64,000 bases of DNA. Source: Escherichia phage A7_1. Location of the stretch: sequence record OP795442; one strand, 5' to 3'. How positions within the stretch are numbered: the stretch's first letter is position 1; each line of letters starts with the position of its first letter. Shown in pieces: positions 26,803 to 63,170 of the stretch. The notes beneath the pieces are model-generated. The model saw nothing but the letters and a program-made list of their open reading frames with translations, was not told the origin of the DNA and searched no databases. The position numbers and the translations under genes were made by a program.

Positions 26803-27128
26803 TTTTTAACTCCGAAGATCTTAGATAGTAATTTATCATTCCCGATAGTTACACCACAAAAACTTTTTACTCCGTATACTAGATACGACCCGATTGTAAC
26901 ACAGATAATGATCGGATAAACAAGATACCAAAAGAATGTTGCAAGTATCCACCCTGCCATCACCATACGTAAATTTACATTTTCGTTATTCAGTGGCTCC
27001 AGGATATAAATATCCTCACAATCTTTTGGGAAGGGGATGTTAAAACCCTTCTGTCGTAATTTGATCAGTAAGAACCAAAGCGGGCAACTGATAAAACAAC
27101 CGATCAAATAACCTTCAACCATTTTCAC
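26799..27128 (-). CDS. hypothetical membrane protein (109 aa), tandem paralog B
   Basis: FLLIKLRQKGF motif shared with neighbour. Confidence 0.5.
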   Translation of the reverse strand: MKMVEGYLIGCFISCPLWFLLIKLRQKGFNIPFPKDCEDIYILEPLNNENVNLRMVMAGWILATFFWYLVYPIIICVTIGSYLVYGVKSFCGVTIGNDKLLSKIFGVKK

Positions 27129-28413
27129 TCTCCTTCAATTTGTCAAGATATTGTGTAACGTATCTTACTTTTACATTTCGGATTCTATTCTTGATCTCTT
27201 CTGGACGTCCAGCAAATCTTTCAGAGATCTCTTTACTTTCTTTTGAGATTGCAACGCTGTTTTGAACAATCCCCGCCAGTGCTGAGAATAATACCAAAGG
27301 TTGAGTGTAGCTGTCAAACATTTTTTCAGGACCCCGACCACGAGCATCACAGATGCAAGCATCAATAAATTCAGAGAGGAATGCTTGGTCCTTTTCACCA
27401 CGTAAGGCTACTAACAAGTCATAAACTTTCTTTGGCTTCATTTCTTTGATACGGTGAAGTCGTGTATGATGCTCAGTTACAGCTAAAGCCAACTTCTTCC
27501 AATTATTGGGGACACCAAAGCGATCACAAACTTGTTCAGTTAACTTGATACCATGTTCTTCGTGACCGTGCAGTTTACCCGTTACCCAATAAATACATTT
27601 ACCTAAGTCGTGACACAGAACTGCCCACTTCACAGCTTCACTTGCACGAGTCGCCTGGGCATAATCCATGCAAAGTAAAGTGTGAACAAATGCATCACCT
27701 TCAGGATGGTGCTCCTTGGGTTGAACAACATCGTATAAATCCACAAGCTCAGGAAATTCCCCCAGTTGAGTCAACATACGGATCATTACCGAAGGTTTAT
27801 TCATTTCTGACTGATCACTAAAGCATTTCTTAATCTCTGCAAATTTACGCTCTTTTGGTAATGCACTTAAATCAACATCCTTGCACATTCCCCAAGTGTC
27901 AGGATCAATTGTAAACTCGCCTCCGTATCTGGCATGTAATCTGGCTAATCGATATACACGTAAAGGGTCTTCGATAAATGCCTTAATAGATACACAACGT
28001 AACCGACGAAGTTCAATATCAAGTGCACCACCGCAAGGGTCAATAATTTCACCCGTAGAAATATCCTTAGCGATCGCATTAATGGTCAAATCTCTTCGCA
28101 TCAGGTCTTGTTCGATTGTAACGTCTGGAGAGAACACAACTTCGAAGTCGTGATAACCAGGACCTGTTGATCTTTCTGTCCGAGCAAGAGCATACTCTTC
28201 CTTTGTCTCGGGGTGAAGGTACACAGGGAAAGCTGCACCAACCTTAGTAAATCCCTTCTCAATCATTTCTTCATGGGTCGCTCCAACTACAACGTAGTCA
28301 CGATCCTTGCTTTCAACACTCATTAGTTCATCGCGAACTGCACCACCTACCAAGTAAACTTTCATTCCTTCTTCTTCCATTCTTTCCAATTCTGCATGCC
28401 CGCTCATAGCCAT
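27115..28413 (-). CDS. cca: tRNA nucleotidyltransferase (CCA-adding enzyme) with HD domain
   Basis: LVGGAVRDELM and DRD head motifs; HHPEGD and LCHDLGK HD-domain motifs. Confidence 0.8.
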   Translation of the reverse strand: MAMSGHAELERMEEEGMKVYLVGGAVRDELMSVESKDRDYVVVGATHEEMIEKGFTKVGAAFPVYLHPETKEEYALARTERSTGPGYHDFEVVFSPDVTIEQDLMRRDLTINAIAKDISTGEIIDPCGGALDIELRRLRCVSIKAFIEDPLRVYRLARLHARYGGEFTIDPDTWGMCKDVDLSALPKERKFAEIKKCFSDQSEMNKPSVMIRMLTQLGEFPELVDLYDVVQPKEHHPEGDAFVHTLLCMDYAQATRASEAVKWAVLCHDLGKCIYWVTGKLHGHEEHGIKLTEQVCDRFGVPNNWKKLALAVTEHHTRLHRIKEMKPKKVYDLLVALRGEKDQAFLSEFIDACICDARGRGPEKMFDSYTQPLVLFSALAGIVQNSVAISKESKEISERFAGRPEEIKNRIRNVKVRYVTQYLDKLKESENG

Positions 28414-43391: not shown

Positions 43392-44030
43392 TTACTCTTT
43401 CCCCTCTGAGAGTTTGATAATTAATTTTGCAGTTTCAGTTAGCTTACCATTAACGTTTTCAACGTCGAAATCTCTAGGTCGTGCACTTTCAGGGAAATTC
43501 TCAGAGTAAATATAATTACGAGAATCACCTTCAAAAGTTAATTTATTACCTGTTCGTGGATCAGTACGATGTAAACGGATCAGGGTGTAATCACCATTTA
43601 CCGCTTTAACTACCGGAACACTTTCATGAATAAATCCACCATCAGAGCTAATAAATGTACAAGTATAACCATCCATTTCCATACTTTTCGCAATATCTTT
43701 AACACGCTTGGCAAGAGCAACACCGAAGTATTCTTCCCCGAAGAGAGGCTTCGCAACATTCTCCGAGATGTGGATCAGCCAGTTACGTGGGGACACTTGT
43801 TTACCTGCAACATTAAAATATGGTTGAGGTACTTCTTTATAATCACGGTGGTAAAGTGCATCCCACAGTTCACGATTAATACCTGCAATACGAATAGCTA
43901 GATCGATAAGGGAACCTTTAAACTCCACATGAATACCCACGTTGTTGCCTACGGTAACTAACTGAGCGATCTCACCAGCAAGAGCATCTTTACCAGAAAA
44001 AGCAGGACCATTCAAATTGATAAATTTCAT
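43392..44030 (-). CDS. deoxynucleoside monophosphate kinase-like protein
   Basis: P-loop GPAFSGKD near N-terminus. Confidence 0.45.
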   Translation of the reverse strand: MKFINLNGPAFSGKDALAGEIAQLVTVGNNVGIHVEFKGSLIDLAIRIAGINRELWDALYHRDYKEVPQPYFNVAGKQVSPRNWLIHISENVAKPLFGEEYFGVALAKRVKDIAKSMEMDGYTCTFISSDGGFIHESVPVVKAVNGDYTLIRLHRTDPRTGNKLTFEGDSRNYIYSENFPESARPRDFDVENVNGKLTETAKLIIKLSEGKE

Positions 44031-44052
44031 ATTAATCTCCTCTCAGTTTCAC

Positions 44053-44079
44053 AATAAAAAACCGCCCCGAAGGGCGGTT
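44053..44079 (-). terminator. intrinsic terminator (same hairpin family)
   Basis: ACCGCCCCGAAGGGCGGT then T-run on minus strand. Confidence 0.6.
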
Positions 44080-44088
44080 AAATCAAAA

Positions 44089-45183
44089 TTACAGAATGTT
44101 TGCCAGCGTTTTCTTCATCGCTGCCTTCTCGCGAACATTCTGACGATCTCGTGCACAAGAACCACATTCTTGACAACGATAAATCTTGAACTTAGACAAG
44201 AACGTTACTGCTGACTTACCTTCCTCAATAACCAGGTCGTCACTACCACAACGAACACAACGCATTGCCGTCTGATCTTTGTGGAACAATGCAATGTTCG
44301 GATGTTTACGCATGAAAGGTCGTACAGTCAGATACAGTTCTTCCAGCGTTGGAATATCACCAATGTTATATTCTTCCATCTCTTCAAATGCGGTTGGGTC
44401 ACCTTCAACACAACGTCGCCACAGACTGAAACCTTCGTGCGACAGCTTACGACTATCAAGTTCAAAATAGTTACATGCGGCTTCAAGTGCATTTGAAGGA
44501 AGAGAGAAAGCTTCTTTCAGTGCAGCCAATGTATCGATCGTAATGTAAGGACTTGGTGGTTGCATACCGTAATATGCGAAACGCTGATTTGCCCAACCAC
44601 GGTCAAAGCGAGCATTATGTGCGATGAAGATATCACATTCATCCAGAACTTTCCACAGGTCTTCGATCAACTTACGATCTGACTGGTGATCTCGTGCAAA
44701 CTCTTCTGGATAATCCGTCAGCTTGCGGCTGAAGATCGACGGGTTGTGCAACCACTTACCAGCGAATGTCAGCATGTACGGTTCCATAATTACCTGCTTC
44801 GGTGCAATGAACTGTTTAAATCGTCCAAACGAATATGCAACAGAAGGAGATGTTTCAACGTCACCAAGGAAAACTTTAGCACCTGGGTTCTGCTCTTTGA
44901 TCTTTTCAATGAAATCTTTTTGAATCTTAGCAACAGGTTCACCACCCGACTCTTTCTGCTGCATATATTCTGCATAGTTTTCGTAATCTTCATACGCCGG
45001 AGTCATTTCAAGGAGTTCTTTAACACTTGAAACATCATTCTTTTCAATTTCACGACGGATCATATTACGAACCGTGGATTCCTGAGACTCTTTACCCAAT
45101 TGGCGAGCTACTTCGCGCTGAGACAGACCGTGTTTCATCAGTTGCAGAACTTGTTCAACAGTAAAAGTTACTTTATTAGTCAC
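44089..45183 (-). CDS. DEDDh-type 3'-5' exonuclease with N-terminal HTH-like region and C-terminal Cys4 cluster
   Basis: DVETS (Exo I) and HNARFD (Exo III) motifs; CVRCG...CQECG cluster. Confidence 0.5.
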   Translation of the reverse strand: MTNKVTFTVEQVLQLMKHGLSQREVARQLGKESQESTVRNMIRREIEKNDVSSVKELLEMTPAYEDYENYAEYMQQKESGGEPVAKIQKDFIEKIKEQNPGAKVFLGDVETSPSVAYSFGRFKQFIAPKQVIMEPYMLTFAGKWLHNPSIFSRKLTDYPEEFARDHQSDRKLIEDLWKVLDECDIFIAHNARFDRGWANQRFAYYGMQPPSPYITIDTLAALKEAFSLPSNALEAACNYFELDSRKLSHEGFSLWRRCVEGDPTAFEEMEEYNIGDIPTLEELYLTVRPFMRKHPNIALFHKDQTAMRCVRCGSDDLVIEEGKSAVTFLSKFKIYRCQECGSCARDRQNVREKAAMKKTLANIL

Positions 45184-45193
45184 TAAAAACTCC

Positions 45194-45439
45194 TTATTTA
45201 AAAAATTCGATTACATCGGCAACAGCAAAGTCACGGATATCTTGTTTATCTACATCATACGCTTTCATAAACCACTGTTCGCCACGATGATACGGCGATT
45301 CACCATACCACATCACTGGCGTTCCAGTTACAGTACGATAACCACACTCACCTTTCCAATTGCGATAATAAAACCGCAGGGTTGGTAAACCGTAGGTGTT
45401 ATGGTCAACTTCTTGACTCATACAAATAACCCTCCTCAA
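45194..45439 (-). CDS. hypothetical protein (81 aa)
   Basis: Track ORF. Confidence 0.45.
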   Translation of the reverse strand: MRRVICMSQEVDHNTYGLPTLRFYYRNWKGECGYRTVTGTPVMWYGESPYHRGEQWFMKAYDVDKQDIRDFAVADVIEFFK

Positions 45440-45983
45440 GTTTATCGATAAACGCTTTTACATAAAGAGTTATCATCTCCCCTTTATCCAAGCTCTCATC
45501 GATAACTACATTGTATCTCAATAAAGCGTTCGTTGCAATTGTTTCTTTCTTTAATCTCTTCAAATATTTTTTCAGGTCAGCAACAATCTCACCATGAAAT
45601 TTCCTTGAAGAGTAATCCCTTTCGAGATAGTCAGCCATTCTACGCAGAACTTCACTCATTGTCAAGTCTGTTTTATCTTCCATATGTTTAGACCAAAGTT
45701 TTTGTACACCACCTTCGAAAAGGTTAAGAGTGCTTCCAATAACGCCCCTTACCTTTCCGTCGAAGTGGTCATGGTCCAAACAAGGCTTCTCCATAACTTC
45801 ACCCAGTATAGCACAAACTCCTTGTTGGTCAAGCAATATTTCATCACGATATTTTGCTATTTCTTTTGACCCACTTACCCAAAGATCCTTATTTAGTTTC
45901 ACACGGATAGGTGTAGTCGCCTTATCCTTTGCTGTGAATAGAGGCCTCTTTGACCGCCGCTTCCTCACTCTCGGTACTCGCAT
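45405..45983 (-). CDS. endonuclease VII-like Holliday junction resolvase (T4 gp49-like)
   Basis: CLDHDHFDGKVRGVIGSTLN matches the endo VII zinc/HNH core from memory. Confidence 0.7.
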   Translation of the reverse strand: MRVPRVRKRRSKRPLFTAKDKATTPIRVKLNKDLWVSGSKEIAKYRDEILLDQQGVCAILGEVMEKPCLDHDHFDGKVRGVIGSTLNLFEGGVQKLWSKHMEDKTDLTMSEVLRRMADYLERDYSSRKFHGEIVADLKKYLKRLKKETIATNALLRYNVVIDESLDKGEMITLYVKAFIDKLEEGYLYESRS

Positions 45984-46590
45984 GTACTCCCTCCAAGGCT
46001 AAAGCCATTAATAACTCACCATGTGTTGGTTCAAGAGGGTTTTCAAAATACTCTTCCATTCCGAAACGATAAAGTGACATTGGGAAGTTTATACTACTAA
46101 ACAAGCTGTTGTCAACATTATTTTTAAATTCCGGTGGAACGTTCGTATCAAATTCCCTAAAGAATTCAGATCGACTAGAGTTTATAAAAACCCTTAGAGC
46201 ATTATCAAAAATTGGATTACCTTTTTGCTTAGTCAGATAAAGCAATTCTTTTAGCGAAGCCTTATCAGAAACAGACTTAAAAGAATATCCACTAATGATG
46301 ATCTCGTCAAAACACATACCTCTAACTTTTTGCCAAAAAGACCACTGTGCAGAACTGATCGTCTGAATATGCATGTTCAGCTTAGATCGTTCATTAAACA
46401 GGTTTATATCGTAACCACTACGATCTTTCTGATAAGAACCAAACCCCAAGCTATTTGCAGTGTGCTTCAGTTTAGCAATGAAATCCCCCCTTTCGAGGGT
46501 ATTCCAACAGATCACTAATTTCTTACTCTGGTAAAACTCTTCAGATTCATAGCGTTCAATAACCGTTTCGTTCAAGGTAGCATCTCCCAA
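45922..46590 (-). CDS. hypothetical protein (222 aa)
   Basis: Track ORF. Confidence 0.45.
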   Translation of the reverse strand: MGDATLNETVIERYESEEFYQSKKLVICWNTLERGDFIAKLKHTANSLGFGSYQKDRSGYDINLFNERSKLNMHIQTISSAQWSFWQKVRGMCFDEIIISGYSFKSVSDKASLKELLYLTKQKGNPIFDNALRVFINSSRSEFFREFDTNVPPEFKNNVDNSLFSSINFPMSLYRFGMEEYFENPLEPTHGELLMALALEGVHASTESEEAAVKEASIHSKG

Positions 46591-47134
46591 TTAAGTAGGC
46601 ATCTGCAAGATCTGTAGACCCGCCGTTCTTACCTGTCTTTGAATATCCAGCTAAAAACCCAGGTTCCATCAACTCGCAAACCTTCATCATTTGATCTTTA
46701 TCCATTTTAATTTTTTCCATCTTCGTACCTTTTGCATTCATCACTTCTTGTTCTTCACCAGGTAACTTACCTCGTGCCCAAGATTTAACGGATGTTGGTG
46801 CAATTGTGTGTATGTTGTCCATACTATACCCATCTCGAAGCAGTGTCAACTGAATACAGAAAAATAATCCTGCAAGATCCCTTGTCGCATTACCAGCAGA
46901 GCCGAAACTCAAAGACTCCAATACGATCTTCTCAACCTTAAAAGATTCACAAATATCTGCAATGTGTCTAGAGATGTATGCCATCTGCTCGACAGGGTTG
47001 TCAAATCGAATCTGCCAGTCCTTGGCATTTGCAGATCCGGTGGTTTTTAATACCTCTTTAAAGATCGGTTCATTACCGTCAAAAACTACACATGCACAAG
47101 AAGCCATACTCTGATCGATGGATAAAATTTTCAC
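46556..47134 (-). CDS. RuvC-like (RNase H-fold) resolvase candidate
   Basis: N-terminal ILSIDQS and C-terminal DLADAYLIG resemble RuvC catalytic segments. Confidence 0.4.
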   Translation of the reverse strand: MKILSIDQSMASCACVVFDGNEPIFKEVLKTTGSANAKDWQIRFDNPVEQMAYISRHIADICESFKVEKIVLESLSFGSAGNATRDLAGLFFCIQLTLLRDGYSMDNIHTIAPTSVKSWARGKLPGEEQEVMNAKGTKMEKIKMDKDQMMKVCELMEPGFLAGYSKTGKNGGSTDLADAYLIGRCYLERNGY

Positions 47135-47442
47135 GCTGATTCCCCTTCTTCGGTATTATCAAGATAATGATACTGGTCGATTAAGAACACATAGTTCTTT
47201 ACTTCTCCGTCCATGTAAACCATAAAAGTTACATATTTCTCATCATAGAACGGATCACCAACAACATAGATCTGGCAGATAGAATCAACACGTTTGTCAA
47301 ACCACTGGATTCGCCAAGGCTCCTCAAGCATAGTCCAAGGTTCTTCAATCTTGTAGACCTGGCGCTTTGCGCCAGGAACGAGTGCTGCACGAATTTCGTC
47401 AGCGATCATAACATCATCAAAACTCTCAGAAAAACCCGACAT
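47131..47442 (-). CDS. hypothetical protein (103 aa)
   Basis: Track ORF. Confidence 0.45.
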   Translation of the reverse strand: MSGFSESFDDVMIADEIRAALVPGAKRQVYKIEEPWTMLEEPWRIQWFDKRVDSICQIYVVGDPFYDEKYVTFMVYMDGEVKNYVFLIDQYHYLDNTEEGESA

Positions 47443-48551
47443 TAAATACCTACCCGTTTTAAAGTTGAGGCTAATGTTGTCTTATCATTTTCTGTACGCT
47501 TCATATAAACACACTGGAAAATGACAGAAGCCCACTGACCCGCCGAAAACTTACGATGATTCCCTAAGTGGTCTGTATATTCAACACCCTCAGGAAACCA
47601 CTTCTTATACTGATCAATAATAGCTAACCACATACTCTTCTCGTCTGCACAAGGGGAGATGACCTGGAAAGCCGATGTTTCACCAAAGCGAAGACCCTCG
47701 AAGGTTTGATATGGTTTAACGTTATCCGCTGCATCACCAAATAGCATTTGGTAACCGAAGAATTTCTTACCCCAACCTTTTACCTTACCAGACTCCATCC
47801 AGATCTCACCCATAGAATCATCGATCAACCAAAGTTCAGGATGTTTCCATGTACGCTCTGTTGAGTCACGCATTGTGTTAAACAACAAAGAAGGAACCTG
47901 GACCTGATCCTTATCGAATGATGCCACAATATGACTAAACTTTCCAGTCTTCCGATAATTTAAATATCCTTTATATCCAAGGATCGATAAATAATCATCA
48001 GCCTCAATCCCATCAACAACGATCGCACCATATTTCTGCTGAACGTAACGGCGAGTCTCTCCAAGCAATAAAGGACGTAAAGTGTCTTCACGGTTACCTT
48101 TATAGATCTCGGGAGTTGGGAGTGCAAGACGGAAGTTACCACTCCCACCTAAAACACCAAGCCCGTTTGCTGATCCTACGTGCTCAAGAATAGCATTGAT
48201 CTTAATCTTCAATAAGTGAAGACAGTTCTCAACTGGTTCTGGAGTTTGCTTTTCAATGATCTCGAAATCATCACGAGTCCACGGAGTAAATTCTTTTCCG
48301 CGAGCAACCGCTTTTGCTTCCATATTGATGTTTTGGTCTTTTAACCATCCACCAACAACATTCTTTTGGCGACCCCAAAACTCTGTTTTGTTGCGAAATT
48401 CTTTTTCCCTTCCAGTCTCCTTGTGTCGAGCGATGATCGTTCTTTTTTCTGCACCCGCAGCAGCTACATAGCAAGTTTGATCGAGGTCAAGTGCAATAAC
48501 CACGTTGTCTTCGACAATACCTGACCAATCTTCAATTACTGGATAACCCAT
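47442..48551 (-). CDS. 5'-3' exonuclease / flap endonuclease (T4 RNase H-like)
   Basis: VIALDLDQ, GIEADDYLSI and VASFDKDQ acidic motifs of FEN-family nucleases. Confidence 0.6.
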   Translation of the reverse strand: MGYPVIEDWSGIVEDNVVIALDLDQTCYVAAAGAEKRTIIARHKETGREKEFRNKTEFWGRQKNVVGGWLKDQNINMEAKAVARGKEFTPWTRDDFEIIEKQTPEPVENCLHLLKIKINAILEHVGSANGLGVLGGSGNFRLALPTPEIYKGNREDTLRPLLLGETRRYVQQKYGAIVVDGIEADDYLSILGYKGYLNYRKTGKFSHIVASFDKDQVQVPSLLFNTMRDSTERTWKHPELWLIDDSMGEIWMESGKVKGWGKKFFGYQMLFGDAADNVKPYQTFEGLRFGETSAFQVISPCADEKSMWLAIIDQYKKWFPEGVEYTDHLGNHRKFSAGQWASVIFQCVYMKRTENDKTTLASTLKRVGI

Positions 48552-48730
48552 TTAATCCTCCTTAAGAAATTTTTGCAATACCTTGATAATTTTTTCGCAG
48601 CAATCTTTTTCACTAACAATGATCACTTCTGTTGAATCACCATCGTTTTGTAGGATGCTGACATACTTATGACCATTCGGACTTTTTCTTATTTCAATTC
48701 GAGTATCACCATAATCTTCATATTCAAACA

Positions 48731-49231
48731 TTAAAACGCCCCCCCATAATCTTCATCATCTTGTTTAGCCTCTGGACGCTTAAATTTAAAATCTTGACCC
48801 ATATATTCATACAGATAATCAATATTCAAAGACCATTCTTGCTTACTTCTTTGTCGCCACAATGCCGCAGCTTGCATAATGTATTCTTCAGCAGCCTTCT
48901 TGTCAACACCGTTAACTTTCATAAAGTGTCGTATTGCACGAGCCATGTTACCAGTTGCTTGAGCACGACCGATGTGTTTTACTTCATGGCAAGGAGGGCA
49001 TAAAGCAATCACTCCTCGTAACACAACTTCACCATCAACAAAGTCCCATATTTCATGAGCTTCCACAGCATGTTTACGACCATTACCTCCTTGGCCCCCA
49101 CATACTTCACAGTGATAGTTAGCCTCTTGATAGCATTTACGACGAACTTTGTCCCATCCCGCTTGGGTGAGATAAGACCGAAGGTTGTTGTCCCAAGCTG
49201 TGCTTGGGATTAATTCGATAGTTAATTTCAT
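48731..49231 (-). CDS. HNH-like zinc-binding nuclease candidate
   Basis: CEVCGG...HAVEAHE...CPPCHEVKH pattern. Confidence 0.4.
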   Translation of the reverse strand: MKLTIELIPSTAWDNNLRSYLTQAGWDKVRRKCYQEANYHCEVCGGQGGNGRKHAVEAHEIWDFVDGEVVLRGVIALCPPCHEVKHIGRAQATGNMARAIRHFMKVNGVDKKAAEEYIMQAAALWRQRSKQEWSLNIDYLYEYMGQDFKFKRPEAKQDDEDYGGAF

Positions 49232-49782
49232 TTAGTATGCCTCACATTTACCAATCATATTCATAGCTTCAGAAACATCGATAATCATATCGGTTGCTTC
49301 GTCCCAAGCTTTCCCCAAGAGATTCTCACCATACCAGAAACTTTCATCATCCACCATAGGGTGATTCTCATCCATACCGATCCCCCATACACGATCTCTC
49401 GGAGAGGCTTCTACAAACTTCAAACCCTTTTTACGGTAACCTACCGCAAGTTCACGGAGATTACCATTATCACACATACGACTATACACTAAACGGTTAC
49501 GATGTTAAATTTATTTTCATCCCAAACTGCCTGATCAAAATCCTTAACTTTACGACCTGGCCTTTTAGCACCTTGTGGAGTTACAGATTTAAGGATTCTT
49601 TCCGCTGAAGCTTTGTCACCGAAAAGCATAGCCTTTTCATACATCATGTAATGCTCACCAGTGTGGAAATAAATCCCCTTCATCTTCTGGTCGAAGTTTG
49701 AAAACGGAGAGATCTCCTGGTAATGATTACTAAAAACATCACGATAAGAATAAAAGAACACATGTTTATCAGTGACTCGCAT
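49232..49782 (-). pseudogene. NADAR-domain protein split into two overlapping frames
   Basis: N-part has FFYSYRDVFSNHY...SPFSNF...TGEHYMMYEKA; C-part (GTG 49489) has WGIG...ENLLGKAW; frames differ by 1 nt; RBS AGGAG before ATG 49782. Confidence 0.5.
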
Positions 49783-49918
49783 AAAAACTCCTATAGATCC
49801 AATGCAGATATTGAAATTAAGAATAGCACTACCGAAAGTAATCCATCCGGCGTACTGAAAAATCCAATCCAGCACGCTCTTGTGAACAGGTAGAATGCCA
49901 GTATTAAAACGATAACCC

Positions 49919-61420: not shown

Positions 61421-61492
61421 GGCCCTGTAGCTGGACGGTTCAAGCAAGCGACTCATAATCGCCAGACGGTGGTTCGATTCCACCCAGGGCCA
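61421..61492 (+). tRNA. tRNA with CAU anticodon (Met, or Ile2-type)
   Basis: 7-bp acceptor GGCCCTG/CAGGGCC, loop CTCATAA, T-arm GGTGGTTCGATTCCACC, encoded CCA. Confidence 0.8.
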
Positions 61493-61628
61493 CCATATGA
61501 AGTCGGGTCGCTCCCGATAAGTCGTCGGACTGATGTTCCCTGACTACGAGTTCCCTCAACGATAACGACGTAGATCACAGCAGAAACGGCGCACCCTATT
61601 TCATTTCTTAATACATTTCAATAAGTTC

Positions 61629-61657
61629 TTGACATAATCCTATTATACTGCTAATAT
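61629..61657 (+). promoter_or_regulatory. sigma70-like promoter (TTGACA 61629-61634, TAATAT 61652-61657)
   Basis: 17-nt spacer. Confidence 0.55.
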
Positions 61658-61678
61658 AGTTATATCGACTGAATTGAG

Positions 61679-62059
61679 GTGTTTATGGCTAAAGCTGAAA
61701 TCGTTACTCGAAAACGCGGTCGGCCTACTACAGAGGAAAGCATTGCAATCAATACTGAGAGAGCAATTCTTCATGCTCGTTCCGAGTTTGCAAGACTTAC
61801 TCCTCAAGCAATTAAAACTCTGGAAGGTCTACTGACTTCCGGTACAGAGAAAGTTAAAGAAACTACTGCGAAGTATATTCTTGAGCAAGCTGAAAAGGCA
61901 AACAATCTGTACACGATGGAAGATAATGAAGAGGATCTGGCAGGAGGAACTACTTCTGCAAATTCAGAAACTCATCAAGGCCCTTCTGATGCATTTAAAG
62001 ATGCTATTCCATTAACTACTCAGATTCGTGAGTATAAAATGGCAGAAGGTGAAGATTAA
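61679..62059 (+). CDS. hypothetical protein (126 aa) with N-terminal RKRGRP basic motif
   Basis: ORF with RBS GAGGTG. Confidence 0.5.
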   Translation: MFMAKAEIVTRKRGRPTTEESIAINTERAILHARSEFARLTPQAIKTLEGLLTSGTEKVKETTAKYILEQAEKANNLYTMEDNEEDLAGGTTSANSETHQGPSDAFKDAIPLTTQIREYKMAEGED

Positions 62060-62297
62060 GGCTCGCAAGGGCCTTTACTAAGAAGTTCTCTTTAAGGTAG
62101 TTGCTTGGTGTAATTTTTCGGCAGATGGCTGCAACCATCCTATCGATAACTTATAGTTAGTGCTGCAAACACTGGCTACCTTAAAGAGAATTTAACTCGT
62201 CGAATAAGGAAGATGCTGATCTCAAAGTGAGGTCACTTACCGCAAGGGGTGTGCATAGACTCCCGCTTCCGAATAGACTATGTGGCGAGATGTATTT

Positions 62298-62376
62298 GGG
62301 GACGTGGCAGAGCGGTCGAATGCGCCTGACTGTAAATTAGGTATCCCACACGGTGGTTCGAATCCATCCGGCCCCA
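62298..62376 (+). tRNA. tRNA-Tyr (GUA), class II
   Basis: Loop CTGTAAA, D-loop GAGCGG-type, T-arm GGTGGTTCGAATCCATC, encoded CCA; one A-G mismatch in acceptor stem. Confidence 0.65.
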
Positions 62377-62382
62377 CCAAAT

Positions 62383-62455
62383 TTTCCGTTAGGCTTACAG
62401 GATAAGATTCCCACAACGTATCGTTGTGATACTGGTTCGAATCCAGTACGGAAAC
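62383..62455 (+). ncRNA. tRNA-like element with non-canonical anticodon arm
   Basis: Perfect acceptor and T-arm, but central 7-bp hairpin CACAACG-TAT-CGTTGTG replaces a canonical anticodon loop. Confidence 0.3.
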
Positions 62456-62582
62456 CAAATTAAGCCGTGATGTGATGTAATCACTGACCTCTTTGAAGGA
62501 TCATGGCATTTTATACAAAAACCTGAATAATTTAGGTTTTAATTCCTGGGGTTCGTAGCCCTATTACTAAGAGGACTTAACT

Positions 62583-62792
62583 ATGTTTACTATTAAAATT
62601 ATTGATATCGATGGAAATGAGACTGGTGTTTCAACAAGGCACTATAGATGGTACTCAAAAATGAATATTTTTGATCTGGATGGTGGTGAATCTGTTTCTG
62701 TACCACCAAAAAGTCGTGCTTATGTAATGAATGACAAAGGAATAACCATCGGTAGATACACAAATACAGCGGATCAACGCGTTCTTAATTAA
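62583..62792 (+). CDS. hypothetical protein (69 aa)
   Basis: ORF with RBS AAGAGGA; ends 1 nt before tRNA-Gly. Confidence 0.45.
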   Translation: MFTIKIIDIDGNETGVSTRHYRWYSKMNIFDLDGGESVSVPPKSRAYVMNDKGITIGRYTNTADQRVLN

Positions 62793-62793
62793 A

Positions 62794-62865
<72 letters not shown>

Positions 62866-62967
62866 CCAAACCTCTATCCATCTGACGCGTTTATGGGGTT
62901 GACCTGATCACTCTTCTCCTAATCTCGTGTGAAGACACCATGATTGTTGGGATGGATAAACTTCTTT

Positions 62968-63039
62968 TGGGGATTAGCCAAGCGGTAAGGCATCGGATTT
63001 TGATTCCGACATTCACTGGTTCGATTCCAGTATCCCCAG
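62968..63039 (+). tRNA. tRNA-Gln (UUG)
   Basis: Perfect stems; loop TTTTGAT; U1-A72 start as in E. coli tRNA-Gln (from memory); encoded CCA. Confidence 0.9.
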
Positions 63040-63047
63040 CCAATTAA

Positions 63048-63121
<74 letters not shown>

Positions 63122-63170
63122 CCAATTTACCCTCATATAATAACAATAATATAATCTCCTCTCCTTCGCC

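What the first reader, a model, noticed from the sequence alone, without database searches (positions are those of the whole stretch)
45405..47134. Two different junction-resolvase candidates close together
An endonuclease VII-like protein (45405..45983) lies two genes from a RuvC-like candidate (46556..47134), both near a FEN nuclease and the DEDDh exonuclease. Carrying two resolvase folds is unusual; one may have a different role, for example packaging or anti-defence.
Basis: partly seen in the sequence, partly recalled or inferred. Interest (0 to 1): 0.35.

Follow-up and report, generated by a model that had tools for sequence, protein, structure and literature searches.

The report
Paired RuvC-like and endonuclease VII genes
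This E. coli phage carries two intact enzymes of unrelated folds that cut branched DNA, side by side in one operon; this is the normal, conserved state of its whole phage group and is already annotated in public records, so it is real but only mildly unusual.

Summary
Window 45405-45983 (-) encodes a full-length homologue of T4 endonuclease VII (gp49). Window 46556-47134 (-) encodes a RuvC-family nuclease with an RNase H-like fold and all four catalytic carboxylates (D7, E73, D175, D178).

The window is a Vequintavirinae (Septuagintavirus-like) coliphage, 97% identical to phage A5-4. Both genes lie in one tightly packed minus-strand operon: FEN-like exonuclease, small ORF, RuvC-like, inserted ORF, endoVII, WYL-like ORF, DnaQ-like exonuclease, terminator. 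Both are under strong purifying selection (dN/dS 0.02-0.05).

The pairing is lineage-wide. In IMG/VR, 25 of 26 close endoVII loci have the RuvC-like gene immediately upstream, usually with overlapping reading frames. None of 58 short-type phage RuvC loci and none of 54 distant endoVII loci show the partner within 10 kb. A survey of jumbo phages reports that the two families are nearly complementary, so co-occurrence is atypical in general but standard in this group.

The endoVII lacks three of the four zinc-binding cysteines of T4 endoVII, as does a large environmental subfamily.

The most likely function is division of labour in resolving and debranching replicative DNA. That is inferred, not shown. 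No evidence points to anti-defence. Interest is low to moderate.

The parts
47442..48551 (-). FEN-like 5'-3' exonuclease, first gene of the conserved nuclease cassette (context)
   Evidence: PHROG 107 'exonuclease', E=9e-66. Weak Pfam 5_3_exonuc_N, E=0.065. It lies upstream of the RuvC-like gene in nearly all related loci.
47131..47442 (-). Small conserved ORF of unknown function; its stop codon overlaps the RuvC-like start (GTGA)
   Evidence: PHROG 13101, E=4.5e-36. The 4-nt overlap is visible in the sequence. Found only in Certrevirus/Septuagintavirus-type loci.
46556..47134 (-). RuvC-family (RNase H-like fold) junction-resolving nuclease, 192 aa. Catalytic residues D7, E73, D175, D178. Clade-specific insertions at about residues 33-46 and 121-145.
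   Evidence: PHROG 159, E=8e-33. Homologues lead to PF02075. The acidic residues are invariant or nearly so in 55 sequences. AF2 pLDDT 96. The top 12 Foldseek matches are bacterial RuvC, followed by phage bIL67 RuvC, Ydc2 and the fowlpox resolvase. hhalign against E. coli RuvC, E=6.6e-5, with the catalytic residues and the two lysines aligned. dN/dS 0.045.
45922..46575 (-). Fast-evolving ORF of unknown function inserted between the two nuclease genes (TTG start after GGGAG). It overlaps both neighbours.
   Evidence: PHROG 12410, E=9e-19, with no Pfam or NCBIfam hit. Present only in Certrevirus/Septuagintavirus-type loci; elsewhere the two nuclease genes abut.
45405..45983 (-). T4 gp49-type endonuclease VII, 192 aa. 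Catalytic D70, H71, H73, N87, E90. The C-terminal helical domain is kept. A disordered basic N-terminal extension (about residues 1-33) is added. Three of the four T4 Zn-ligand cysteines are missing.
   Evidence: PF02945, E=7e-7. PHROG 423, E=7e-32. PDB 1e7d, E=1.7e-6. The alignment with T4 gp49 shows C23=C57, C26->L60, C58->G83, C61->L86. The AF2 model (pLDDT 86) matches only T4 endoVII significantly, E=5e-8, TM 0.65-0.69. Strong RBS before ATG 45983. dN/dS 0.017-0.031.
45194..45439 (-). Small WYL-like ORF that follows endoVII throughout the clade
   Evidence: Weak Pfam WYL hit, E=1e-3. PHROG 3715, E=8e-25. Conserved position.
44089..45183 (-). DnaQ/DEDDh-type 3'-5' exonuclease, last gene of the cassette
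   Evidence: PF00929, E=1.5e-6. PHROG 403 'DNA polymerase exonuclease subunit', E=1.6e-112.
44060..44079 (-). Intrinsic terminator-like hairpin (8-bp stem, 6 G-C pairs, then a T run) that closes the transcription unit
   Evidence: No comparable terminator lies between the two nuclease genes, and promoter-like hits in the region are at the chance level (15 found against 12.2 +/- 3.3 expected).

Best explanation
The phage encodes two separate, catalytically competent, structure-selective DNA endonucleases in one transcription unit of its replication and nucleotide-metabolism region.

The first is a RuvC-family enzyme. By homology it is a dimeric RNase H-fold nuclease using two-metal catalysis through D7, E73, D175 and D178, and it would nick Holliday junctions. 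Characterised phage RuvC enzymes also nick forks.

The second is a T4 gp49-type endonuclease VII. By homology it is a domain-swapped dimer with a His-Me finger site (D70, H71, H73, N87, E90), and it would cut many kinds of branched, looped or mismatched DNA.

Shown here: both genes are real, their active sites are intact, they are under purifying selection, they are co-oriented with no terminator between them, and they are inherited as a linked pair across a wide phage clade.

Inferred: the two enzymes divide the work on branched replicative DNA. The RuvC-like enzyme would resolve Holliday junctions or forks made during recombination-dependent replication. EndoVII would act as a broad debranching and mismatch nuclease that clears concatemers for packaging, as in T4. 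Which enzyme does which job is not established.
For: Identity and integrity of the RuvC-like protein:
- PHROG 159, E=8e-33.
- Fold match to E. coli, Thermus, Deinococcus and phage bIL67 RuvC, from a model with pLDDT 96.
- D7, E73, D175 and D178 are conserved in 55 homologues. They align with E. coli D7, E66, D138 and D141, and K117 and K146 align with K107 and K118.

Identity and integrity of endoVII:
- establish the family.
- D70, H71, D72, H73, N87 and E90 are invariant.

Selection: dN/dS is 0.017-0.045.

Operon structure:
- GTGA start/stop overlap, short gene overlaps and a strong RBS.
- The only strong terminator lies after the DnaQ-like gene.

Linkage:
- The RuvC-like gene is directly upstream of endoVII in 25 of 26 close endoVII loci and in 13 of 20 assessable long-type RuvC loci. 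The order is always the same, and the frames often overlap by about 45-60 nt.

Functional precedent:
- T4 gp49 removes branches before packaging (as cited in PMC11370258 and PMC7344957).
- bIL67 RuvC cleaves Holliday junctions and forks in vitro and in vivo (PMC3864405).
Against: - There is no biochemical or genetic evidence for either protein in this phage group.
- The RuvC-like protein does not reach any Pfam or NCBIfam threshold itself, and a profile of its family finds no PDB sequence. Its assignment therefore rests on PHROGs, transitive homology and a predicted fold.
- The endoVII lacks three of the four Zn ligands. From my own knowledge, these are important for folding of the T4 enzyme.
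- Related cassettes work with only one of the two nucleases: RuvC-like only in L018-L023, endoVII only in L114-L116, L126, L131 and L139. The two may therefore be largely redundant rather than specialised.
Confidence: 0.62

Rival explanations
1. Simple redundancy, or a frozen intermediate of non-orthologous displacement. Both enzymes do the same debranching job. An ancestor acquired a second resolvase in the same cassette slot, and this lineage kept both as back-up, for instance against loss or inhibition of one.
For: - The same FEN...DnaQ-exonuclease cassette exists with RuvC-like only (L018-L023), with endoVII only (L114-L116, L126, L131, L139), or with both.
- In jumbo phages the two families are nearly complementary (PMC7824862), as expected for functional equivalents.
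Against: - The pair is kept, in the same order and usually with overlapping frames, from Escherichia phages to Vibrio, Pseudoalteromonas and Shewanella phages, at only 30-45% protein identity.
- Both are under strong purifying selection.
- A purely redundant copy would be expected to be lost more often than in the few lineages seen.
Confidence: 0.22
2. One enzyme is repurposed against the host. For example, the RuvC-like nuclease nicks host replication forks to break down the chromosome and feed the adjacent nucleotide-salvage genes. Alternatively, one nuclease counters a host defence.
For: - bIL66 and bIL67 RuvC fragment the E. coli chromosome by nicking forks (PMC3864405).
- The cassette adjoins genes for dNMP kinase, 5'-nucleotidase, ThyX and ribonucleotide reductase.
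- The RuvC-like protein has an extra charged beta-hairpin in the alphaC-alphaD region. That region governs branch selectivity in bIL67 RuvC.
Against: - There is no direct evidence.
- Fork nicking in bIL67 is a side effect of relaxed specificity, not a demonstrated host-shutoff function.
- Nothing links either protein to known defence or anti-defence families. No anti-defence library was available, so this was not properly tested.
Confidence: 0.08
3. One of the two is not a junction nuclease. Either the endoVII-like protein is inactive or purely structural because its zinc site is lost, or the RuvC-like protein is an RNase H-type primer-removal enzyme, as annotated ('RNaseH') in many rV5-like genomes.
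For: - Three of the four Zn ligands are absent.
- The 'RNaseH' label appears in Vequintavirus records.
Against: - Among the 150 best family representatives, 127 keep 0-1 of the four cysteines yet retain D-H-H-N almost universally. The cysteine-poor branch therefore looks like an active subfamily.
- The catalytic residues are invariant in this clade.
- The AF2 model still superposes on T4 endoVII over its full length.
- For the RuvC-like protein, the best structural matches are RuvC resolvases, not RNase H1 or H2.
- A separate FEN-type nuclease for primer removal lies two genes upstream.
Confidence: 0.08

Closest known systems
Bacteriophage T4 endonuclease VII (gp49; PDB 1e7d, 1en7, 2qnc)
   Same: - Homologous over the whole length, including the C-terminal helical domain (E=1.7e-6, TM 0.65-0.69).
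- The catalytic residues D40, H41, H43, N62 and E65 are all conserved as D70, H71, H73, N87 and E90.
   Different: - About 25-28% identity.
- Only one of the four Zn-ligand cysteines is kept (C57). The others are L60, G83 and L86.
- Adds a basic, predicted-disordered N-terminal extension of about 33 aa.
- Encoded next to a RuvC-like gene. As far as I know, T4 has no RuvC homologue.
Lactococcus phage bIL67 RuvC (PDB 4ktw) and other short phage RuvC proteins (PF02075)
   Same: - Same fold (E=4e-5).
- Same acidic tetrad and conserved lysines.
- Sequence-level homology to ~160-aa phage RuvC proteins that hit PF02075.
- A stand-alone phage gene with no RuvAB partner nearby.
   Different: - 192 aa, with two insertions (about residues 33-46, and a beta-hairpin at about 121-145 in the alphaC-alphaD region).
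- Does not itself reach the Pfam threshold.
- Linked to an endoVII gene, which none of the 58 short-type RuvC loci have within 10 kb.
E. coli RuvC (PDB 1hjr)
   Same: - TM 0.80 normalised to the target.
   Different: - 13% identity in the structural alignment.
- No RuvA or RuvB partner was seen in the cassette.
- Phage enzymes of this family are typically less junction-specific (PMC3864405).
Holliday junction resolvase repertoire of jumbo phages (Iyer et al. 2021, PMC7824862)
   Same: The same two families, RuvC-like and T4 endoVII-like, serve as phage resolvases without RuvB.
   Different: There the two show a nearly complementary distribution. Here they are co-inherited as an adjacent pair.

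Membership tests
RuvC / RNase H-like Holliday junction resolvases (PF02075) | RNase H-like alpha/beta fold with the RuvC topology | tested here: met
   AF2 model with pLDDT 96 and pTM 0.91. The 12 best Foldseek PDB matches are bacterial RuvC (E=1e-8 to 1e-5, TM to target 0.66-0.80), followed by bIL67 RuvC, Ydc2 and the fowlpox resolvase. This rests on a predicted structure, not a solved one.
RuvC / RNase H-like Holliday junction resolvases (PF02075) | Four catalytic carboxylates (E. coli D7, E66, D138, D141) | tested here: met
   D7 is conserved in at least 90% of 55 homologues, and E73, D175 and D178 are invariant. They align with the E. coli residues in hhalign. They sit at the end of beta1, the end of beta4 and the start of the last helix.
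RuvC / RNase H-like Holliday junction resolvases (PF02075) | Scores above the curated family threshold (Pfam, NCBIfam) | tested here: not met
   The window protein has no Pfam or NCBIfam hit, and the family profile finds no PDB sequence at E<=0.01. Indirect support is available: PHROG 159, E=8e-33; 20 of 55 aligned homologues hit PF02075, best E=1.3e-9; hhalign against E. coli RuvC gives E=6.6e-5, probability 64%.
RuvC / RNase H-like Holliday junction resolvases (PF02075) | Homodimer that makes paired nicks in four-way junctions | not testable with these tools
   Needs biochemistry. No multimer prediction was available.
T4-type recombination endonuclease VII (PF02945) | Scores above the curated family threshold | tested here: met
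   PF02945, 29.5 bits against a cutoff of 23.6, E=7e-7. PHROG 423, E=7e-32.
T4-type recombination endonuclease VII (PF02945) | His-Me finger catalytic residues (T4 D40, H41, H43, N62, E65) | tested here: met
   D70, H71, H73, N87 and E90 are invariant in 25 clade members and align with the T4 residues.
T4-type recombination endonuclease VII (PF02945) | C4 zinc site (T4 C23, C26, C58, C61) | tested here: not met
   The aligned residues are C57, L60, G83 and L86. Position 60 is an invariant Leu in the clade. The loss is shared by 127 of the 150 best family representatives, which keep 0-1 of the four cysteines. Zinc content itself cannot be tested here.
T4-type recombination endonuclease VII (PF02945) | C-terminal helical domain, which forms the domain-swapped dimer in T4 gp49 | tested here: met
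   The sequence alignment to 1e7d runs through T4 residues 32-150. The model is helical from residue 84 to 191 and superposes on 157 residues of T4 endoVII. Dimerisation itself was not tested.
T4-type recombination endonuclease VII (PF02945) | Cleavage of branched or mismatched DNA; needed for packaging | not testable with these tools
   Needs biochemistry and phage genetics.

The most novel reading that the evidence does not exclude
The RuvC-like and endoVII-like nucleases form an obligate, co-evolving two-enzyme module. They would be translationally coupled and might interact physically or act in sequence on the same branched intermediate. The long, insertion-bearing RuvC variant and the cysteine-poor, N-terminally extended endoVII variant would then be adapted to each other. 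This would be a dual-fold resolvase system not described for any phage.
Probability: 0.12. Interest if true: 0.55.

Novelty: new member of a known kind. Interest (0 to 1): 0.28.

Why it matters
Phage junction-resolving enzymes decide whether branched replicative DNA can be packaged, and they are useful reagents. T4 endonuclease VII and T7 endonuclease I are standard mismatch and branch-cleavage tools.

Vequintavirinae are widely used as therapeutic and biocontrol phages, yet their replication and recombination biology is essentially unstudied.

A clade that stably keeps two unrelated resolvases side by side is a natural system for asking what each fold is specialised for. Close relatives carry only one or the other in the same cassette. 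The practical payoff is modest: it corrects 'hypothetical protein' and 'RNaseH' annotations to RuvC-like resolvase, and it flags a zinc-ligand-poor endoVII subfamily for biochemical study.

Tried and rejected
- Direct sequence searches of the RuvC-like protein against Pfam, NCBIfam and PDB sequences gave nothing meaningful. Searches found no family. One search found only ribosomal protein eS8 at E about 1, which is noise. One search, with the family profile, found no hit at E<=0.01.
I repeated it without T4.
- The sigma-70 promoter scan of the cassette was at the chance level (15 found against 12.2 +/- 3.3 expected) and was not used. Only the strong terminator at 44060-44079 was kept.
- My first phmmer search for the inserted gene used an out-of-frame start (46576) and found nothing. 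With the in-frame TTG at 46575 it worked.
- 'RNase H for primer removal' was considered for the RuvC-like ORF because of GenBank labels in rV5-like phages. I rejected it on the fold matches and the presence of a FEN-type gene.
- 'Degenerate or inactive endoVII' was considered because of the lost cysteines. I rejected it as the leading view because the catalytic residues are invariant and the cysteine-poor branch is large.
- I could not compute a genome-wide intersection of the two families across the phage collection, because only 60 rows per search are listed. Locus-based counts from IMG/VR were used instead.
- I ran no further search on the inserted ORF.
Full report
**What the window is.** Bases 44000-49300 are 95-98% identical to Escherichia phages A5-4, A73, W70, UPEC06 and LTH01, all classified in Vequintavirinae. 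The closest, A5-4, belongs to the recently described genus Septuagintavirus (PMC11370258). More distant relatives at about 80% identity are Certrevirus phages such as CR3, PBES 02 and phiTE. The region is part of a long run of minus-strand genes (GC skew) for replication and nucleotide metabolism. These include ThyX, a 5'-nucleotidase, dNMP kinase, ribonucleotide reductases, DNA ligase and PhoH.

**Check of the observation.** Both ORFs exist exactly as stated.

The ORF at 45405-45983 hits Pfam Endonuclease_7 above its gathering score (29.5 against 23.6 bits). It covers PHROG 423 'endonuclease VII' end to end (E=7e-32). It also matches T4 gp49 in the PDB directly (1e7d, E=1.7e-6), with an alignment that runs through the C-terminal domain. 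An AlphaFold2 model built on 25 homologues (pLDDT 86) has T4 endonuclease VII as its only significant PDB matches (E=5e-8, TM 0.65-0.69 normalised to T4, 157 aligned columns).

The ORF at 46556-47134 has no Pfam or NCBIfam hit of its own. It matches PHROG 159 'RuvC-like Holliday junction resolvase' (E=8e-33). A homologue search leads continuously from 99%-identical phage proteins to ~160-aa phage proteins that carry PF02075 RuvC (20 of 55 aligned members, best E=1.3e-9). The AlphaFold2 model is very confident (pLDDT 96, pTM 0.91). Its 12 best Foldseek matches are bacterial RuvC from Deinococcus, Thermus, E. coli and Pseudomonas, followed by lactococcal phage bIL67 RuvC, yeast Ydc2 and the fowlpox virus resolvase.

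In the 55-sequence alignment E73, D175 and D178 are invariant and D7 is nearly so. It was therefore tested and not met.

**Gene structure.** The endoVII gene starts at ATG 45983, 5 nt after a GGAGGGAG Shine-Dalgarno sequence. The shorter start annotated in A5-4 would drop a basic N-terminal extension that is conserved in many relatives. The RuvC-like gene starts at GTG 47134 in a GTGA overlap with the stop of the upstream small ORF, preceded by GAAGGGG.

One gene lies between the two nucleases. It runs from 45922 to 46575, with a TTG start after GGGAG, and overlaps both neighbours by 20 and 62 nt. The only strong intrinsic terminator lies at 44060-44079, just after the DnaQ-like exonuclease gene. 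Promoter-like matches are at the chance level.

The unit therefore reads:
1. FEN-like exonuclease (47442-48551)
2. small ORF
3. RuvC-like
4. inserted ORF
5. endoVII
6. WYL-like ORF
7. DnaQ-like exonuclease
8. terminator

Against UPEC06 and A5-4, dN/dS is 0.045 for the RuvC-like gene and 0.017-0.031 for endoVII.

**Is the pairing unusual?** In general, yes. [quoted passage not shown] My own loci agree:
- Of 79 IMG/VR loci seeded with the RuvC-like alignment, the 58 short-type (~160 aa) RuvC loci never have an endoVII within 10 kb.
- Of the 21 long-type (~190-210 aa) loci, 13 have endoVII immediately downstream. One is cut by the contig end. One has it 11-12 kb away on the same contig (L016/L096). 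Six (L018-L023) have none within 10 kb.
- Of 80 loci seeded with the endoVII alignment, 25 of the 26 close, full-length relatives have the RuvC-like gene directly upstream. None of the 54 more distant endoVII loci do.

The order is always RuvC-like then endoVII. In Vequintavirus (phage nimi) and in Vibrio phage 5P1c the annotated genes overlap by 49 and 44 nt.

Within this phage group, however, the pair is the norm:
- 274 phage records contain the RuvC-like gene and 254 contain the full-length endoVII subtype, with matching host distributions.
- Both names already appear in public annotation, for example in 5P1c, FENT2 and KE23.
- I found no paper that comments on the co-occurrence.

**Comparative anatomy of the cassette.** The FEN...DnaQ-exonuclease cassette occurs in three states in the loci I fetched:
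- both nucleases
- RuvC-like only (L018-L023)
- endoVII only (L114-L116, L126, L131, L139)

This pattern fits two functionally related enzymes competing for one 'slot'. The dual state is fixed in Vequintavirinae and in related phages of Vibrio, Pseudoalteromonas and Shewanella.

The gene that separates the pair in this window is found only in Certrevirus/Septuagintavirus-type loci. It diverges far faster than its neighbours (phmmer 1e-17 to 1e-24, where the RuvC-like gene gives about 1e-76). It is best read as a later insertion into an ancestrally adjacent pair.

**Peculiarities of the two proteins.**

The endoVII keeps all catalytic residues (D70, H71, H73, N87, E90 = T4 D40, H41, H43, N62, E65). 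It keeps only one of the four T4 zinc ligands: C57 corresponds to C23, while L60, G83 and L86 replace C26, C58 and C61.

This is not unique to the window. Among the 150 best 50%-identity cluster representatives found with the clade profile in 1.84 billion proteins, 16 keep all four cysteines and 127 keep none or one. D-H-H-N is almost universal among them. That list is biased towards relatives of the query.

The protein also has a basic N-terminal extension of about 33 aa, predicted disordered (pLDDT below 60), which T4 gp49 lacks.

The RuvC-like protein has two insertions relative to short phage RuvC proteins. One is a charged beta-hairpin at about residues 121-145, between helices that correspond to alphaC and alphaD. 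In bIL67 RuvC this region controls discrimination between forks and junctions (PMC3864405).

**Interpretation.**

Shown:
- two intact nuclease genes of unrelated folds, under selection and in one operon
- inherited together as a linked pair

Inferred from the families:
- Both cut branched DNA.
- T4 gp49 debranches DNA for packaging and acts on mismatches.
- Phage RuvC enzymes resolve junctions and nick forks.

I therefore favour division of labour between recombination-dependent replication and pre-packaging debranching (confidence about 0.6 for the overall statement). Which enzyme has which role is open.

Rivals:
- Simple redundancy, or a frozen displacement intermediate (about 0.2). The single-nuclease cassette variants support it.
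- A host-directed or anti-defence role for one enzyme (about 0.1). There is no direct evidence.
- One of the two is not a junction nuclease (about 0.1). Residue conservation and the fold matches argue against it.

**Verdict.** Both proteins are uncharacterised members of known families in an already sequenced and annotated phage group. The conserved, often overlapping RuvC-like/endoVII pair and the zinc-ligand-poor endoVII branch are modestly interesting and easy to test. They are not a new kind of system.

Noticed in passing
window 49232-49875 (-): The YbiA/COG3236-like gene is split into two ORFs (49489-49875 and 49232-49489). The cause is a 1-nt deletion in a C run ('gtaa-ccg' against 'gtaacccg') relative to phages A5-4 and UPEC06, where it is a single gene. 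It is either a real frameshift/pseudogene or a sequencing error.
   Followed up: partly
window 45922-46575 (-): An ORF of unknown function (PHROG 12410, no Pfam or NCBIfam hit) is inserted between the RuvC-like and endoVII genes. It occurs only in Certrevirus/Septuagintavirus-type phages and diverges much faster than its neighbours. Its function is unknown, and no structure prediction was made.
   Followed up: partly
IMG/VR loci L018-L023, L114-L116, L126, L131, L139: The same FEN...DnaQ-exonuclease cassette exists with only the RuvC-like gene (L018-L023) or only an endoVII gene (L114-L116, L126, L131, L139). This looks like a natural 'either, or, both' series for the resolvase slot.
   Followed up: partly
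endoVII family representatives P0124, P0157-P0305: Of the 150 best cluster representatives of the endoVII profile, only 16 keep all four T4 zinc-ligand cysteines and 127 keep 0-1. In about 40% of them the E65-equivalent residue is L, I or V, while D-H-H-N is kept. This points to a large zinc-ligand-poor endoVII branch that, as far as I found, has not been discussed.
   Followed up: partly
window 45194-45439 (-) and 47131-47442 (-): Two small conserved ORFs flank the nuclease pair. A WYL-like protein (weak PF13280 hit, PHROG 3715) follows endoVII across the whole clade. A PHROG 13101 protein is translationally coupled to the RuvC-like start, but only in the Certrevirus/Septuagintavirus lineage.
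   Followed up: no
window 48552-49231 (-): An HNH (homing-type) endonuclease gene lies at 48731-49231 (PHROG 5200, E=3e-70), next to a variable spot. A5-4 has an extra 495-nt ORF there, where the window has a 59-aa ORF at 48552-48731.
   Followed up: no
window 12536-16125 (-): Three consecutive genes match PHROG families labelled 'regulator of chromosome condensation' (RCC1-like repeats; E=5e-17 to 4e-50).
   Followed up: no
window 61421-63124 (+) and 27115-28413 (-): A cluster of five tRNA genes (Met, Tyr, Gly, Gln, Pro) lies on the plus strand. A tRNA nucleotidyltransferase gene (PHROG 2244, E=5e-132) lies elsewhere in the window.
   Followed up: no
window 44089-45183 (-): The DnaQ-like exonuclease has weak HTH-type hits at its N-terminus (Pfam E about 0.05; PHROG transcriptional regulator about 1e-3). 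Its C-terminus has paired CxxC motifs (CVRCGS...CQECGS). This is an unusual architecture for a proofreading-type exonuclease.
   Followed up: no
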